A DNA stretch of 24,757 nt from a virus (IMGVR_UViG_2648501797_000006:1-24757); one strand, 5' to 3'. Counted from the first letter of the stretch, positions 1,452 through 14,633 are shown. The notes: generated by a model from the letters alone, not told the origin. Program-made: numbers and translations.

Positions 1452-1955
1452 TTATTGATAGTGTTTTATGTTCAGATAATGCCCGATGACTTTGTCATGC
1501 AGCTCCACCGATTTTGAAAACGACAGCGACTTCCGTCCCAGCCGTGCCAGGTGCTGCCTCAGATTCAGGTTATGCCGCTCAATTCGCTGCGTATATCGCT
1601 TGCTGATTACGTGCAGCTTTCCCTTCAGGCGGGATTCATACAGCGGCCAGCCATCCGTCATCCATATCACCACGTCAAAGGGTGACAGCAGGCTCATAAG
1701 ACGCCCCAGCGTCGCCATAGTGCGTTCACCGAATACGTGCGCAACAACCGTCTTCCGGAGCCTGTCATACGCGTAAAACAGCCAGCGCTGGCGCGATTTA
1801 GCCCCGACATAGCCCCACTGTTCGTCCATTTCCGCGCAGACGATGACGTCACTGCCCGGCTGTATGCGCGAGGTTACCGACTGCGGCCTGAGTTTTTTAA
1901 GTGACGTAAAATCGTGTTGAGGCCAACGCCCATAATGCGGGCTGTTGCCCGGCAT
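1452..1955 (-). CDS. insB: IS1 InsB frame (transposase made as an InsAB' fusion by -1 frameshifting)
   Basis: 167-aa frame overlapping the insA 3' end, sequence ...[27 protein letters not shown]... typical of IS1 InsB. Confidence 0.9.
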
Positions 1956-2149
1956 CCAACGCCATTCATGGCCATATCAATGATTTTCTGGTGCGTACCG
2001 GGTTGAGAAGCGGTGTAAGTGAACTGCAGTTGCCATGTTTTACGGCAGTGAGAGCAGAGATAGCGCTGATGTCCGGCGGTGCTTTTGCCGTTACGCACCA
2101 CCCCGTCAGTAGCTGAACAGGAGGGACAGCTGATAGAAACAGAAGCCAC
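1874..2149 (-). CDS. insA: IS1 InsA (91 aa)
   Basis: Translation [43 protein letters not shown]... matches IS1 InsA from memory. Confidence 0.9.
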
Positions 2150-4148: not shown

Positions 4149-4624
4149 TATGCAAACTCCTCGATAATACAAATCCCAGCAGCACCTTTCCCGCCTGTCA
4201 TACTGGTTCCGCTATAACCGGCATCGTATGCGCCACCGCCACCTGAACCATATACCTTACCACTAACACCACCGCCAGCGCCTGCGCGTCCACCGCCCCC
4301 CCAGTACGATGTTCCGCCTTCACCGCTGACGCCGATATTTCCGGACTGACCGTCGCCTCCATTTCCACCAATGATGTTGATACCGCCAGTACTTGGCACA
4401 CCGCCGTTATCGTCTTCGGTCAGCTCGCTGATGACCGAAAAATCGAACTGATAAATCAGCTCATGACGATTCAGATCCAGCAGCGTGCCGCCGTCATAAG
4501 TAATCGGGTTACCGCACGCTTCCGGGTTCCAGCCCAGAATGGCCTTAAAGAGCATCTGCCGGATATCGTCCACCACATCATACGAGGCAAACTGACCGCG
4601 CTCATCACGCCCGTTCCAGCTCTT
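4148..4624 (-). pseudogene. Tail fibre C-terminal (receptor-binding, Gly-rich) fragment lacking its N-terminal portion
   Basis: Frame is open from 4624 to stop 4148..4150 with only an alternative GTG at 4576; the Gly-rich C-terminus is directly followed by tfa. Upstream is the terminase gene, not the rest of a fibre gene. Confidence 0.6.
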
Positions 4625-6104
4625 TCATCGGGTCGGACATGTTGGTGTAGTTCTGAATGATGGTGATGGGATTCAGGTCTTCATCAGCAAGGTCATGTGA
4701 CAGCCCGGTCGCCCCGAAGGGGTCGATGGGTGACTCGCTGACCGGGCTGATTTTGTTCGCTGCTTTGGCCTCTTCGAGGATGTAGCGATAATCCACCTCT
4801 GCACCATCGGTAACGGTCAGGACGCCCATTTCCACCCATTTCTGAAAGCGTTCGGCTGTCCGGCGATCTTCATTTTTCTCGACGCTGTACACCGTGTCAT
4901 ACGGTACCCAGAAACGCGGGGCCACACTGTAGTAATGCGTTTTACCGTCAATCTCGCGGGTATAAAGTCGCGCCATGCTGTTCATATCCAGCTTACGCGC
5001 CAGGTCAAAGGCCAGAATGCACGGCTGCCCCTCGAACTGCTCAAGGGTCAGTGATTTATCCTCGCAGCTCTGCCAGCTCACCAGGTTGAAATACGCCGAA
5101 CGCGCCGACACCCAGATATTGAGGTGTTTTGTTTTAAAGACGTTTGCCAGACGGGCGTTATTTTTCGCACGCTGCTGCTGACTTAACAAAAATTCGCGAT
5201 AAACCGACACGCCAATATTTGGATTGGCTTTTTCCAGCACCTGCGGGTCGGTCCAGTCGTCACCTTCATCAACGGTATAGATGATCCCGAACAGTTCATC
5301 GTTGGGCACCGAGCCGTTGAGCATCTCGATGACTTCCCGCCGCTTGTCGTAGCACGGCCCCTCAATGTTGTACCCGGCAGTAGTAATGGCCCACATCAGT
5401 GGCTGACGTCGCGCCCCCATCCCGGTAAGCATCGTGGTGTAAAGCGCATCGGTGGCGTGCTCGTGATATTCATCCACCACCGCACAGTGGGGTGATGATC
5501 CATCACCGGGGTTACCGATCAGCGGTTCAAACCGCGCGCCATCCTCCGGACGGTTCATGTTTGAGGCGTTAACCTCAATCCCGAACGCTTCCGTCAGCAT
5601 GGGCGTGCGTTTACACATCAGTCGCGCCGGGCGAAAGACTTCCCACGCCTGTTTCTCTGTCGTGGCACCGGAATACACTTCCGCGCCAAACTCGTTATCA
5701 CAGGCAAAACAATACAGGGCGACACCGGCAGAGATTGCCGATTTGCCGTTCTTACGGGGGATTTCGGTATACACCTCCCGGAAGCGGCGCAGCCGGGAGC
5801 CTTTATTGACCCAGCCAAACGCACAGCAGATCACAAAGAGCTGCCACGGCTCCAGCGTGATGGGCATCCTCTTGAATGCCCACTCACCCTTGGTGTGCGG
5901 CAACAGCTGAATAAATTTGGCGGCTCGTTCAGCCAGGTCCTTGTCGAAGCGGTAACGAAACGACTTACTTTTTTCCGCCATCAGGTCATCAAGATGGCGC
6001 TGGCAGGCCTGAATCACAAACTGGCAGGCCACAATCTTTCCGCGAAAGACATCCCGGGCATACTGATTGGCAGCATTTACGTTGGGGTAAGATTTCCGGC
6101 TCAT
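4605..6104 (-). CDS. Terminase large subunit (Terminase_1-like, 499 aa)
   Basis: 499-aa frame; its ATG overlaps the TerS stop as ATGA (6101..6104). Placed after HNH and TerS as in HK97-type packaging modules. Confidence 0.85.
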
Positions 6105-7595: not shown

Positions 7596-7889
7596 ATGAA
7601 AAAAATGTTGTTTTCTGCCGCTCTGGCAATGCTTATTACAGGATGTGCTCAACAGACGTTTACTGTTGGAAACAAACCGACAGCAGTAACACCAAAGGAA
7701 ACCATCACCCATCATTTCTTCGTTTCGGGAATTGGACAGGAGAAAACTGTTGATGCAGCCAAAATTTGTGGCGGCGCAGAAAATGTTGTTAAAACAGAAA
7801 CCCAGCAAACATTCGTAAATGGATTGCTCGGTTTTATTACCTTAGGCATTTATACTCCGCTGGAAGCGCGGGTGTATTGCTCACAATAA
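7596..7889 (+). CDS. bor: Bor lipoprotein (lambda bor homologue)
   Basis: MKKMLFSAALAMLITGCAQQTFTV...ICGGAENVVKTETQQTFVNGLLGFITLGIYTPLEARVYCSQ is near-identical to lambda Bor as recalled; lipobox LITGC; AGGA upstream of ATG 7596. Confidence 0.9.
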   Translation: MKKMLFSAALAMLITGCAQQTFTVGNKPTAVTPKETITHHFFVSGIGQEKTVDAAKICGGAENVVKTETQQTFVNGLLGFITLGIYTPLEARVYCSQ

Positions 7890-10668: not shown

Positions 10669-10790
10669 GTCTTTTTCCCTTCTGGTTAACATGACATACC
10701 AATAACTCTTGTCTAAAAAGCCAGCAAGATAAAAAGTCAGTATTCACGACCACCAGCGTGTTTACTGTGCTGCACCAAGTTTACAGGTAC

Positions 10791-10822
10791 AAAAAAACCG
10801 CTCAGCGGCGGGTTTAAGTTGT
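10791..10822 (-). terminator. Weak candidate bidirectional terminator
   Basis: aaaaaaaCCGCtcaGCGGcgggttt: short GC stem flanked by an A-run on one side and a T-run on the other (seven Ts on the minus strand). Confidence 0.3.
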
Positions 10823-10987
10823 GTGGCGAAGTAACCACTCTTAACACAGTAATCTAGAAAATGCGGACCGCGTTAGTGATTTTTATCTGTTTTTCCATTA
10901 TTTTTTTGCCACACAGCTTAAAACGAAAAATAAAGCAGGCGTTGCCAAACCTCACGGTGACAGTTGGCTTAGAATGAGGACATATTT

Positions 10988-12007
10988 TTGGATAAGTTTG
11001 ATGAGATTCATGTAGATATTGAATCTGAGCAGCAAGCCTTCGATTTGCTTGAAAGCTATCTTGATGGTTATGGTTTACCTGACAGTTTAAGTTTCAACGG
11101 ATGGCCAAACCTTACCATCAGATTAACCGGTGAAAAATTCAACAGATCGCTAACACCTTCAGTTATGAAGGGATTTGTTGAAATGCAAGCTCAAATCAAC
11201 AAATCATATGCCCTTGCCAAGTACGGTGTCCCTGACGTCCGCAAACTGACCAAAGAAGAACTTGATGCCCTAGAAATAGAAGTTACGGTAGAACAGGGTT
11301 CTTCAATAGTAGAAATCAACATTGATGGCTTTTTAACCAAACTCACACAGGAACTTGTTGGTAAAATGAACGCAACTGAGATCATGTTTACTGTTCTCGG
11401 CGCAGCAGTCATCTGGGGCGGAGTAACAGTATTTAAACGGTTCTTGGACAACCGTAAAGATATTCGCCTTGCAGAAATTGCTAAGGATGGAGAGAAAGAA
11501 CATCTCCGGACTATGCAGATCATGAGCGAGCAAGAAACTAAACGCCTGCGGGTTATTTCAGAAATGATTGCGGAAAAACCACTTCTCGATAACATGGACC
11601 GTATGTCGTATGACGCTAAAACCCAAATGGTCAAATCCTTTGTGCGTTCAGATAACGCTCAAATTGATGGCGTTACTATTGATTCTGAAATGGCGAAAGA
11701 GTTGGTTACGAATGCTCGTAGACGTTCATCAGAAATGAGGATTGATGGTATTTACCGAATTGAAGAAGTCAATAATACTGACCCAGAGAGTTTCAAAGTT
11801 AAGGTCCGACGCGTAGATACCGACCAACGTCTAACCTGCGTAGTTCAGGATGTTTTCCTTGATGAATCCGGAAACAAAGAAGCATTGCAGCGAGCTGAGT
11901 GGGAAAGAAAGCCTGTACATTTGAGCATTAACGCAAAACACGTCGATGGTGACATTAAGTCAGCAGTAATTCTCTATGTTCGAGATGTGGAACAAAAGCC
12001 CGAGTAA
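10988..12007 (+). CDS. Hypothetical membrane-anchored protein, 339 aa, no family recognised (candidate moron)
   Basis: Only start is TTG at 10988, with GAGGA 7 nt upstream; no in-frame ATG for about 60 codons although the N-terminus reads protein-like. One central hydrophobic segment (IMFTVLGAAVIWGGVTVF) in a charged, helix-rich sequence. Visibly AT-rich versus flanks (not computed). Converges on Q, stops 14 bp apart. Confidence 0.6.
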   Translation: MDKFDEIHVDIESEQQAFDLLESYLDGYGLPDSLSFNGWPNLTIRLTGEKFNRSLTPSVMKGFVEMQAQINKSYALAKYGVPDVRKLTKEELDALEIEVTVEQGSSIVEINIDGFLTKLTQELVGKMNATEIMFTVLGAAVIWGGVTVFKRFLDNRKDIRLAEIAKDGEKEHLRTMQIMSEQETKRLRVISEMIAEKPLLDNMDRMSYDAKTQMVKSFVRSDNAQIDGVTIDSEMAKELVTNARRRSSEMRIDGIYRIEEVNNTDPESFKVKVRRVDTDQRLTCVVQDVFLDESGNKEALQRAEWERKPVHLSINAKHVDGDIKSAVILYVRDVEQKPE

Positions 12008-12021
12008 TCGGGCTTCAATAA

Positions 12022-12414
12022 TCAATCTTTAATTTCGGGGTCCATCTCTAGACTAATTTCCAGCATCGATAGGCAGCCATCAATAAACCCCTCAGCCATC
12101 TGTATCTCAATGCGTATTAGTTTCTCATCCTTTTTACGAGCCTTGGCGAGCTTTCTTTTAGAGATACCGTATAGGTAATGGGCAACAAGAAGCGAATGTT
12201 CGTCCGGCCTTTTTTGCCTTAGACGAGCAAGACAACCTTCAATAATTAATGCATCACTATCTGAACATGCCTGACGTGTTTTGCTTGTATAGGGAAGAAG
12301 CCCTTTAAACCCAGCAGCTATAGGAGAATAGTCTACTCCTGAACTATCACTCGCCGCCCATGCTCCCCAACGATCCAGAACCATTTGAATATCACGCATC
12401 AACTTTCTCCACAA
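12022..12414 (-). CDS. Late-gene antiterminator Q (phage 82/21-type Q family)
   Basis: MRDIQMVLDRWGAWAA...IAAGFKGLL... matches the Q antiterminator family as recalled; true start may be the MRDIQ methionine 5 codons in. Confidence 0.8.
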   Translation of the reverse strand: MWRKLMRDIQMVLDRWGAWAASDSSGVDYSPIAAGFKGLLPYTSKTRQACSDSDALIIEGCLARLRQKRPDEHSLLVAHYLYGISKRKLAKARKKDEKLIRIEIQMAEGFIDGCLSMLEISLEMDPEIKD

Positions 12415-14242: not shown

Positions 14243-14633
14243 TCAGGCGGCTGCACCCGCCGTTTTCTCGTACTTACTGATAGTGATCTCGACCTTCCCT
14301 TCCGGGATAACCGGTCCCCACTCCACCAGCATTCTTTTCACCTGACTGTCGTCTTCCCACACACCCGCGTGGGTCAGGGCGTCAAACAGCGCCTTGTTAT
14401 AGTTGTCCAGATCGCGGCTCCGGTTATCCGGAAGGAAACAACACGATCTCCACTGAAGCAGGTGCCGACGTTGGTTTCGGCAGACGACGTAACTGCTCAA
14501 CTATTGCTGCGCACGCCGCGCTCTGGAATTTTCGCCCCGCCGCGCTTATCAGGCTCTTACCAGCAAACGCCCCTTTGTTGGGGTGTCGCCAGTACGTGTT
14601 CACGCTGGGCGGGAAAGGCAGGATCAGCTTCAT
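14243..14633 (-). pseudogene. rusA: rusA Holliday-junction resolvase split by a 1-nt frameshift
   Basis: ORF 14424..14633 (MKLILPFPPSVNTYWRHPNKG...VEIVLFPSG-stop) is the RusA N-terminus; ORF 14243..14500 (+1 frame) carries ...FLPDNRSRDLDNYNKALFDALTHAGVWEDDSQV..., the RusA catalytic C-terminus. Shift maps to the TGTTGTTT run near 14431..14445. Confidence 0.75.

What the first reader, a model, noticed from the sequence alone, without database searches (positions are those of the whole stretch)
10988..12007. Unrecognised 339-aa membrane-anchored protein in the Q-to-lysis moron slot
In lambdoid phages the interval downstream of Q is the classic cargo site (Shiga toxin genes sit there). Here it holds an AT-rich ORF on the strand opposite to late transcription, converging on Q with stops 14 bp apart. 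It has a TTG start with a good RBS, one central TM helix flanked by charged helical regions, and no similarity I can recall. That is the profile of a single-gene exclusion or abortive-infection factor, but the function is inference.
Basis: partly seen in the sequence, partly recalled or inferred. Interest (0 to 1): 0.8.

Follow-up and report, generated by a model that had tools for sequence, protein, structure and literature searches.

The report
Prophage cargo gene, probable phage defence
This is a real, strongly conserved but uncharacterised gene that many temperate phages carry as optional cargo; it encodes a membrane-anchored protein that most likely protects the lysogen against other phages, but nobody has tested that.

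Summary

It belongs to a large family with no characterised member (PHROG 6191; 1,518 clusters at 50% identity, all about 330 aa). Pfam, NCBIfam, PADLOC and PDB give no significant match.

Relatives sit in at least five classic phage cargo slots. These are converging on Q, just downstream of the cI repressor, between the tail chaperones and the tape measure, between tail genes I and J, and in Mu-like and P2-like prophages. The TTG start and a bidirectional terminator hairpin over the stop codon are conserved.

The exact protein (WP_000357056.1) is already listed as an untested "predicted novel defense gene" in DefensePredictor (Science 2026).

Best reading: a lysogen-expressed, non-enzymatic, membrane-anchored anti-phage protein, exclusion at entry somewhat more likely than abortive infection. 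Function and membrane topology are untested.

The parts
10988..12007 (+). ORF, 339 aa, TTG start, TAA stop; WP_000357056.1; member of PHROG 6191
10977..10981 (+). GAGGA ribosome-binding site, 6 nt upstream of the TTG start
   Evidence: the GAGG core is conserved in the Enterobacter and Pantoea orthologues
11009..11362 (+). N-terminal alpha/beta domain (residues 8-125). It is the most conserved part (G48, T56, Q67, L87, E91, G104, S105) and no fold match was obtained for it
11381..11434 (+). Charge-free hydrophobic segment, residues 132-149 (IMFTVLGAAVIWGGVTVF). Predicted membrane anchor, flanked by K126 and K150/R156/K157/R160
11435..11647 (+). Charged helical linker, residues 150-220
11726..11989 (+). 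C-terminal OB-fold barrel, residues 247-334 (five strands with a helix between strands 3 and 4)
11996..12015 (.). Hairpin AAGCCCGA-GTAA-TCGGGCTT. The ORF stop codon lies in the loop and the hairpin ends 6 nt from the Q stop. On the minus strand it is followed by TTTTGTT. Likely shared bidirectional terminator; its stem encodes the conserved C-terminal KPE
   Evidence: conserved in orthologues down to 70% amino-acid identity
12022..12414 (-). Antiterminator Q (PF06530 type), the convergent neighbour. The pairing persists while Q diverges to 56% identity
10824..10885 (.). Conserved non-coding block upstream of the ORF. Its left part, to about 10849, is shared by all five aligned phages; the hairpin/T-run part is absent in PhiR40_1. 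Probably a late-operon leader or regulatory region; function not resolved
10797..10809 (-). Intrinsic terminator on the late strand (GCCGCTGAGCGGT + T7), a tR'-like element at the left border of the variable slot

Best explanation
The ORF is a self-contained cargo unit (a 'moron') of a degraded lambdoid prophage at thrW/proA.

What the protein looks like. It has a conserved N-terminal alpha/beta domain, one membrane-embedded helix, a charged helical stalk and a C-terminal OB-fold. It has no recognisable catalytic motif.

Proposed mechanism. It is made at a low level in the lysogen. Weak TTG initiation is conserved, and in many relatives the gene lies directly behind the repressor gene. It sits in the inner membrane and blocks a superinfecting phage at or just after genome entry. 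It would do this by binding a component of the entry apparatus, or the incoming DNA, through the OB-fold and/or the N-terminal domain.

Shown: a real gene under purifying selection; the domain architecture (on a predicted model); mobility between cargo slots; its own terminator; a conserved weak start codon.

Inferred: expression in the lysogen, membrane insertion and topology, any anti-phage activity, and the step at which it acts.

My estimates: any anti-phage role about 0.55-0.6; the entry-exclusion version about 0.35.
For: Cargo behaviour. The same flanks hold four unrelated reverse-oriented cargos: this ORF, a 148-aa ORF in PhiR40_1, orf54+orf53 in phage cdtI, and a 308-aa ORF in mEp460.

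Slots occupied by family members:
- Converging on Q in Escherichia, Enterobacter and Pantoea. This accounts for 47 of 80 IMG/VR loci.
- Immediately downstream of, and co-oriented with, the cI-type repressor in Salmonella, Morganella, Acinetobacter, Moraxella phage Mcat17 and coliphage phi458. This accounts for 16 of 80 loci.
- Between the tail chaperones and the tape measure, which is the slot of HK97 gp15.
- Between tail genes I and J in P. aeruginosa, which is the slot of HK97 gp22/23.
- In Mu-like and P2-like prophages.

Tolerated during the carrier phage's own lytic growth. In the tail slots the gene is co-oriented with the late genes, which fits entry exclusion better than a broadly triggered suicide system.

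Weak start. In 44 of 52 distinct ORFs no in-frame ATG is available, and TTG is the first in-frame candidate in 42 of them. This holds down to 60% protein identity although synonymous sites are saturated.

Membrane segment.

No conserved His, Cys or acidic cluster, which argues against an enzyme.

Low GC in every host.

DefensePredictor Table S10 gives mean log-odds 6.55 (cutoff 4) and no hit to known defence proteins.

Neighbouring defence-like genes. A Septu-like PDC-M62 pair lies next to Q in the Pantoea prophage, and a weak PDC-S48-like gene lies upstream in the P2-like prophage.
Against: There is no experimental evidence for expression, membrane location or phage resistance.

There is no homology to any validated defence or exclusion protein.

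DefensePredictor uses low GC and neighbouring genes as features, so it is not independent of the context argument. Its overall validation rate was 45% of 94 tested units and rose with the score, and 6.55 is at the low end of the predicted range.

No sigma-70 promoter could be placed convincingly upstream. The only scan hit would leave no leader.

Topology is problematic. The K/R balance weakly favours the C-terminus inside, which would put a 130-residue acidic N-terminal domain with no signal peptide in the periplasm.

The very confident single-chain model (pTM 0.81) might mean the hydrophobic helix is packed inside the fold or an oligomer rather than in lipid. I could not inspect the coordinates.
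Confidence: 0.35

Rival explanations
1. Abortive-infection effector. The OB-fold or the N-terminal domain senses a phage product or nucleic acid. The protein then oligomerises through its small-residue-rich hydrophobic helix and permeabilises or depolarises the inner membrane, killing the infected cell before progeny are released.
For: The conserved weak TTG start suggests a dosage-sensitive, potentially toxic product. The hydrophobic helix keeps a stripe of small residues (G138, A140, G144/G145) that suits helix-helix packing. The cI-downstream slot is also where lambda keeps RexAB. In the Q slot the gene lies on the opposite strand to everything expressed in lytic growth, which could help shut it off on induction.
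Against: In the tail-module slots the gene is co-oriented with late genes, so it would be made during the carrier phage's own lytic cycle. One short hydrophobic helix is a minimal pore former. There is no homology to RexB or to the membrane effectors in PADLOC.
Confidence: 0.22
2. A lysogenic-conversion factor unrelated to phages. It would be a membrane protein that changes host envelope physiology, stress tolerance or host interaction, as bor/iss and lom do.
Against: The family spans free-living and host-associated Gamma-, Beta- and Alphaproteobacteria, in lambdoid, Mu-like and P2-like phages. That is hard to reconcile with a niche-specific host trait. There is no signal peptide or lipobox.
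Confidence: 0.15
3. A protein that serves the carrier phage's own cycle, for example lysis timing, anchoring of replication or DNA at the membrane, or help with tail or entry functions.
For: It is close to the holin in some phages and to tail genes in others. Five members give a weak sub-threshold Pfam match of the C-terminal domain to the GpJ FNIII-A domain (E 0.002). OB-folds often bind DNA.
Against: Closely related phages with the same flanks lack it and carry unrelated cargo instead. Its position is not fixed relative to any core module. It stays intact in 85 of 86 E. coli genomes, including this prophage, which has lost its tail genes and has a truncated terminase.
Confidence: 0.1

Closest known systems
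HK97 gp15 (superinfection-exclusion moron; role as I recall it from Cumby et al. 2012)
   Same: Single-gene phage cargo. As I recall, gp15 is an inner-membrane protein, which is only predicted for this ORF. Relatives of this ORF occupy exactly the gp15 slot between the tail chaperones and the tape measure. This is the mechanistic model for blocking genome entry.
   Different: gp15 is 62 aa with no OB-fold or N-terminal domain, and shows no sequence relationship (hhalign probability 0.2%).
Lambda RexA/RexB (genes downstream of cI)
   Same: Many relatives sit directly downstream of, and co-oriented with, the repressor gene. That position implies expression in the lysogen.
   Different: Rex is a two-protein system in which, as I recall, RexB is a multi-pass membrane protein. 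There is no similarity to either protein.
SNIPE / PD-lambda-1 (Saxton et al., Nature 2026, PMC13190303)
   Same: A single protein with one membrane anchor and an elongated helical region. SNIPE shows that a membrane-tethered protein can intercept phage DNA at injection.
   Different: SNIPE has an N-terminal anchor, DUF4041 and a GIY-YIG nuclease. This protein has a central anchor, no nuclease motif, and no Pfam or PADLOC match to those models.
Tai (phi80 orf63) and Tab tail-assembly blockers
   Same: Prophage cargo genes found in several hot spots. phi80 orf63 is also reverse-oriented relative to the late genes.
   Different: TaiEcA is 204 aa and unrelated (hhalign probability 0.2%). Tab lies next to the terminase genes of Casadabanvirus phages.
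DefensePredictor 'predicted novel defense gene' cluster WP_000357056.1 (Science 2026, PMC13092281, Table S10)
   Same: It is this exact protein.
   Different: That is a score only. The accession was not found in the supplementary tables held here, including the list of tested units, and no architecture, family or context analysis is given.

Membership tests
Moron (autonomous cargo unit, in the sense used in the HK97 genome annotation) | Present or absent between genes that are adjacent in related phages | tested here: met
   Four different cargos sit between the same flanks
Moron (autonomous cargo unit, in the sense used in the HK97 genome annotation) | Base composition differs from the surrounding phage DNA | tested here: met
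   41.9% against 49.2% GC here, and lower than the locus in 13 of 13 contexts
Moron (autonomous cargo unit, in the sense used in the HK97 genome annotation) | Own terminator | tested here: met
   Conserved hairpin at 11996-12015 over the stop codon, with A/T runs on both sides in the Enterobacter and L067 orthologues. Activity not measured
Moron (autonomous cargo unit, in the sense used in the HK97 genome annotation) | Own promoter | tested here: inconclusive
   The only consensus match (10957-10986) would leave no leader, and no conserved -35/-10 pair was found
PHROG 6191 | Full-length match to the family profile | tested here: met
   E 1.6e-152, residues 3-337 on profile positions 2-337 of 338
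OB-fold (C-terminal domain) | Five-stranded barrel with a helix between strands 3 and 4, and structural similarity to known OB-folds | tested here: met
Bitopic inner-membrane protein | One hydrophobic, non-amphipathic, charge-free segment long enough to span the bilayer | tested here: met
   18 residues, KD 1.77, Eisenberg <H> 0.81 with moment 0.06, at most 8% K/R/D/E in any column across 150 relatives. No dedicated transmembrane predictor was available
Bitopic inner-membrane protein | Membrane location and topology | not testable with these tools
   The charge balance only weakly favours the C-terminus inside. Needs fractionation and PhoA/LacZ-alpha fusions
Known anti-phage systems (PADLOC-DB 2.0.0) | Match to any model of a known or candidate defence protein | tested here: not met
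   No hit for the window protein, and no recurrent hit among 42 relatives
RexA / RexB | Sequence or profile similarity | tested here: not met
   hhalign probability 0.1% for both
Tai (TaiEcA, phi80 orf63) | Sequence or profile similarity | tested here: not met
   hhalign probability 0.2%
Anti-phage defence gene (functional class) | Reduces plating or plaque size of at least one phage when expressed | not testable with these tools
   Only a machine-learning score exists: log-odds 6.55 against a cutoff of 4

The most novel reading that the evidence does not exclude
This is the founding member of a widespread family (more than 1,500 clusters at 50% identity, mainly in Proteobacteria) of single-protein, non-enzymatic, membrane-anchored phage-exclusion factors. 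The family is built from a previously undescribed N-terminal domain and an OB-fold. Lambdoid, Mu-like and P2-like temperate phages trade it between cargo slots, and it blocks genome entry or an immediately following step.
Probability: 0.3. Interest if true: 0.7.

Novelty: new variant of a known kind. Interest (0 to 1): 0.55.

Why it matters
If the protein is shown to exclude phages, it would add a large and structurally distinct family to the short list of single-protein membrane defences. It would have a clear architecture to dissect (N-terminal domain, anchor, stalk, OB-fold).

It would also have natural test beds: 86 complete E. coli genomes, many Salmonella genomes including serovar Typhi, P. 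aeruginosa prophages, and the inducible coliphage phi458.

It would explain why one gene is kept in so many unrelated cargo slots. It would also matter for predicting phage host range in APEC, Salmonella and Pseudomonas.

If it shows no anti-phage activity, it becomes a well-documented false positive for context-based and machine-learning defence prediction.

Tried and rejected
- Pfam, NCBIfam and PADLOC scans of the protein and of 42 relatives gave only sub-threshold hits: FNIII-A_GpJ E 0.002; DUF7947 in 8 members, best E 0.0018, 17-19 bits against a cutoff of 27.
- A PDB sequence-profile search found nothing below E 0.17.
- Foldseek against PDB matched only at the OB domain, with E 4.5e-3 or higher.
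- Foldseek against BFVD gave three full-length matches (E 2e-5 to 9e-5) to uncharacterised phage proteins, one with DUF6575. TM-scores were only 0.23-0.27.
- I followed DUF6575 to Vassallo et al. 2022, where it is named as a defence-associated domain. I could not identify which system carries it, and no member of this family hits DUF6575 by sequence. It remains a lead only.
- The AFDB50 library was unavailable.
- Tai, Tab, SNIPE, RexA, RexB and HK97 gp15 were each considered and rejected as relatives.
- A second word-indexed homologue search with a 150-sequence profile added no annotated relatives.
- Rfam found nothing significant around the gene.
- I tried to locate the late promoter PR' and the ORF's own promoter by consensus scan and by cross-genus footprinting, without a convincing result.
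- A full-text literature search for the accession, for phrog_6191 and for phi458 Orf11 gave no gene-level study.

Full report
OBSERVATION

RefSeq annotates the same coordinates in identical DNA of E. coli ST540 as WP_000357056.1, 'hypothetical protein'.

GAGGA lies at 10977-10981, 6 nt before the TTG. No other in-frame start could include the conserved N-terminus.

The antiterminator Q gene (12022-12414, minus strand) converges on the ORF with 14 nt between the stop codons. The ORF is 41.9% GC against 49.2% for the window.

The window is a degraded lambdoid prophage next to tRNA-Thr and proA. Its terminase is truncated, its tail genes are lost, and it carries an IS1.

IS IT A REAL GENE?

Yes. 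A first search gave 101 homologues of about 335 aa in Enterobacterales, Pseudomonas, Acinetobacter and Burkholderiales. An exhaustive profile search gave 1,518 clusters at 50% identity with E of 1e-3 or better. The 150 best are almost all 320-360 aa and match end to end.

Between the E. coli, Enterobacter and Pantoea orthologues, non-synonymous differences are 0.08-0.20 per site while synonymous sites are saturated at about 0.8.

In 5,426 complete E. coli genomes the gene occurs in 86. It is always chromosomal and single-copy, and at least 99.4% identical in every record listed. One listed copy is split by IS1.

WHAT THE PROTEIN LOOKS LIKE

Pfam, NCBIfam, PADLOC and a PDB profile search give nothing significant. 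The only family assignment is PHROG 6191, of unknown function.

AlphaFold2 gives a confident model: pLDDT 85 and pTM 0.78 with 42 sequences, and pLDDT 93 and pTM 0.81 with 150 sequences. Both runs give the same secondary structure. The parts are:
- an N-terminal alpha/beta domain (residues 8-125);
- a long kinked helix (129-163) whose first part is hydrophobic;
- further charged helices up to residue 220;
- a small beta element;
- a C-terminal five-stranded barrel with a helix between strands 3 and 4.

Three uncharacterised phage proteins in BFVD align over the full length, but with low TM-scores.

Residues 132-149 are the only hydrophobic stretch. In 150 diverse relatives, K/R/D/E make up at most 8% of any of these 18 columns, and none at 132-145 apart from 1% K/R in two columns. 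The stretch is flanked by K126 and by K150/R156/K157/R160, and aromatic residues sit at 143, 149 and 152. Eisenberg mean hydrophobicity is 0.81 (family mean 0.71) and the hydrophobic moment is 0.06. This is the signature of a membrane anchor, not of an amphipathic surface helix.

Topology is unresolved. The charge balance only weakly favours the C-terminus inside. The N-terminal domain is acidic and has no signal peptide.

The best-conserved residues are mostly structural, with a few polar ones (Q67, S105, E91, T56, Y74, R244). There is no conserved His, Cys or acidic cluster, so an enzyme is unlikely.

CONTEXT: THE STRONGEST EVIDENCE

(a) The slot is variable. With the same flanks (Q on one side; a conserved non-coding block, a small ORF, a DNA methylase and the holin on the other), related phages carry other reverse-oriented cargo:
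- phage PhiR40_1 has a 148-aa ORF;
- phage cdtI has orf54 (DUF6731) plus orf53;
- phage mEp460 has a 308-aa ORF.

(b) The family moves between slots:
- Converging on Q, 14-35 nt apart, in Escherichia, Enterobacter and Pantoea.
- Directly downstream of, and co-oriented with, the cI-type repressor in Salmonella (including Typhi), Morganella, Acinetobacter, Moraxella phage Mcat17 and coliphage phi458. The phi458 protein, Orf11, is a distant full-length member (hhalign probability 98%).
- Between tail genes I and J in P. aeruginosa.
- Between the tail chaperones and the tape measure in another lineage.
- In a Mu-like and a P2-like prophage.
- Once in an IS1595-flanked islet.

In the HK97 record, the chaperone-tape-measure slot holds gp15 ('moron product') and the I-J slot holds gp22/gp23 ('moron' and 'reverse moron').

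Of 80 IMG/VR loci, 47 are Q-convergent, 16 are cI-downstream and 17 are other. The gene is almost absent from plasmids (5 of 72,556 records).

(c) It has features of an autonomous, tightly dosed unit:
- A hairpin (AAGCCCGA-GTAA-TCGGGCTT, 11996-12015) holds the stop codon in its loop and is conserved in orthologues down to 70% identity.
- In the Enterobacter and L067 orthologues it has an A-run on one side and a T-run on the other, so it looks like a bidirectional terminator shared with Q.
- In 44 of 52 distinct ORFs from viral contigs no in-frame ATG is available, and TTG is the first in-frame candidate in 42 of them, down to 60% protein identity.
- From general knowledge, TTG starts about 3% of E. 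coli genes. Its retention points to selection for low translation, as expected for a dosage-sensitive product.
- The ORF has lower GC than its locus in all 13 contexts checked, for example 0.46 against 0.61 in Pseudomonas.

WHERE IT SITS RELATIVE TO LATE TRANSCRIPTION

The gene is on the strand opposite to Q and all late genes. Two things bound it:
- the terminator hairpin directly after Q;
- on the far side of the ORF, a conserved non-coding block (about 10824-10885) followed by a strong minus-strand terminator (10809 to 10797).

The left part of the block, together with the terminator, is shared by phages carrying each of the cargo variants aligned.

Together these suggest that the cargo lies between the end of the early operon and the late promoter/leader, not inside the late transcript as stx genes do. 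I could not locate PR' or the ORF's own promoter, so this remains an inference.

PRIOR KNOWLEDGE

The accession appears in Table S10 of the DefensePredictor paper (DeWeirdt, Mahoney and Laub, Science 2026, PMC13092281). It is listed as 'Putative/Predicted novel defense gene' with mean log-odds 6.55 (range 4.51-9.74, cutoff 4) and no HHblits or Foldseek hit to known defence proteins.

The accession was not found in any other supplementary table held here, including the list of tested units. That study validated 45% of 94 tested units, and success rose with the score. The model uses low GC and neighbouring genes as features, so it is not independent of the context argument. No other paper mentions the protein or its PHROG.

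INTERPRETATION

The most economical reading is a lysogen-expressed, membrane-anchored, non-enzymatic anti-phage protein. I put any anti-phage role at about 0.55-0.6.

I lean towards exclusion at or just after genome entry (about 0.35) rather than abortive infection (about 0.22). My reason is that the gene is tolerated in positions where it would be co-transcribed with the carrier phage's own late genes. In addition, one of those positions is the slot of HK97 gp15, which, as I recall, is a characterised entry-exclusion protein.

The conserved weak start and the small-residue stripe on the hydrophobic helix keep the abortive-infection model alive.

A host-directed conversion function (about 0.15) and a role in the phage's own cycle (about 0.1) fit less well. 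The family has a very broad host and phage range. Sister phages replace it with unrelated cargo. It stays intact in a prophage that can no longer make virions.

COMPARISON WITH KNOWN SYSTEMS

It plausibly works like HK97 gp15, the Rex and Sie genes, or SNIPE. All are cargo expressed in the lysogen; gp15, RexB and SNIPE are membrane proteins. It is not a member of any of them: profile comparisons with RexA, RexB, TaiEcA and gp15 are null, and it has no SNIPE domains. It is best filed as a new protein family within the known kind 'prophage-encoded single-gene defence or exclusion moron'. It has been flagged computationally but never characterised.

VERDICT

Interest is moderate to fairly high, because the family is large, structurally distinct and easy to test. 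Many such candidates now exist, and none of the functional steps has been shown for this one.

Noticed in passing
window 11996-12015: A conserved palindrome forms a hairpin whose loop is the ORF's stop codon and whose stem encodes the conserved C-terminal KPE. It lies 6 nt after the Q stop and looks like a bidirectional terminator shared by the two convergent genes.
   Followed up: partly
window 10797-10885: A non-coding block (GTGGCGAAGTAACCACTCTTAACA ... TGCGGACCGCG..T-run) plus a minus-strand terminator (10809 to 10797). The left part is conserved across Escherichia, Enterobacter and Pantoea and across phages with different cargo in the slot; the hairpin/T-run part is absent in PhiR40_1. 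It is probably the late-operon leader or regulatory region; the late promoter was not found.
   Followed up: partly
L015 1740-2186; L016 1067-2455; L110 2735-3661: The same Q-proximal slot holds three other unrelated reverse-oriented cargos: a 148-aa ORF in PhiR40_1, DUF6731 orf54 plus orf53 in phage cdtI, and a 308-aa ORF in mEp460. None matches PADLOC. The slot may be a hot spot of untested accessory genes.
   Followed up: partly
L024 8617-11000: In a Pantoea prophage that carries an orthologue, a Septu-like two-gene system lies immediately upstream of Q. It is an AAA_15 ATPase plus a PtuB-like protein, best matching PADLOC candidate PDC-M62 (E 2e-34 and 8e-24).
   Followed up: no
window 7596-7889 (+): The iss gene (increased serum survival lipoprotein, a bor relative) is a second reverse-oriented cargo gene. 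It lies between the lysis genes and the HNH/terminase genes of the same prophage.
   Followed up: no
window 1452-2149, 4608-6104 and 14243-14633: The prophage is decayed. It has an IS1A insertion, a terminase large subunit missing its C-terminus, tail genes reduced to fragments, and a frameshifted rusA, yet the 339-aa ORF is intact.
   Followed up: no
L111 2896-3942 (Escherichia phage phi458 Orf11): An inducible coliphage from an avian pathogenic strain, which plates on MC1061, carries a distant full-length family member (20% identity, hhalign probability 98%) directly downstream of its CI gene. It is a ready-made experimental system.
   Followed up: partly
L010 6308-10193: In an Acinetobacter prophage the homologue is one of a chain of co-oriented cargo genes behind the repressor. 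The chain includes an HSDR_N-domain protein and a GGDEF protein; neither matches PADLOC.
   Followed up: no
window 10687-10823 (+): A weak, non-significant Rfam match to the enterobacterial sRNA STnc130 (25 bits against a gathering score of 55, E 0.4) overlaps the conserved region left of the ORF.
   Followed up: no
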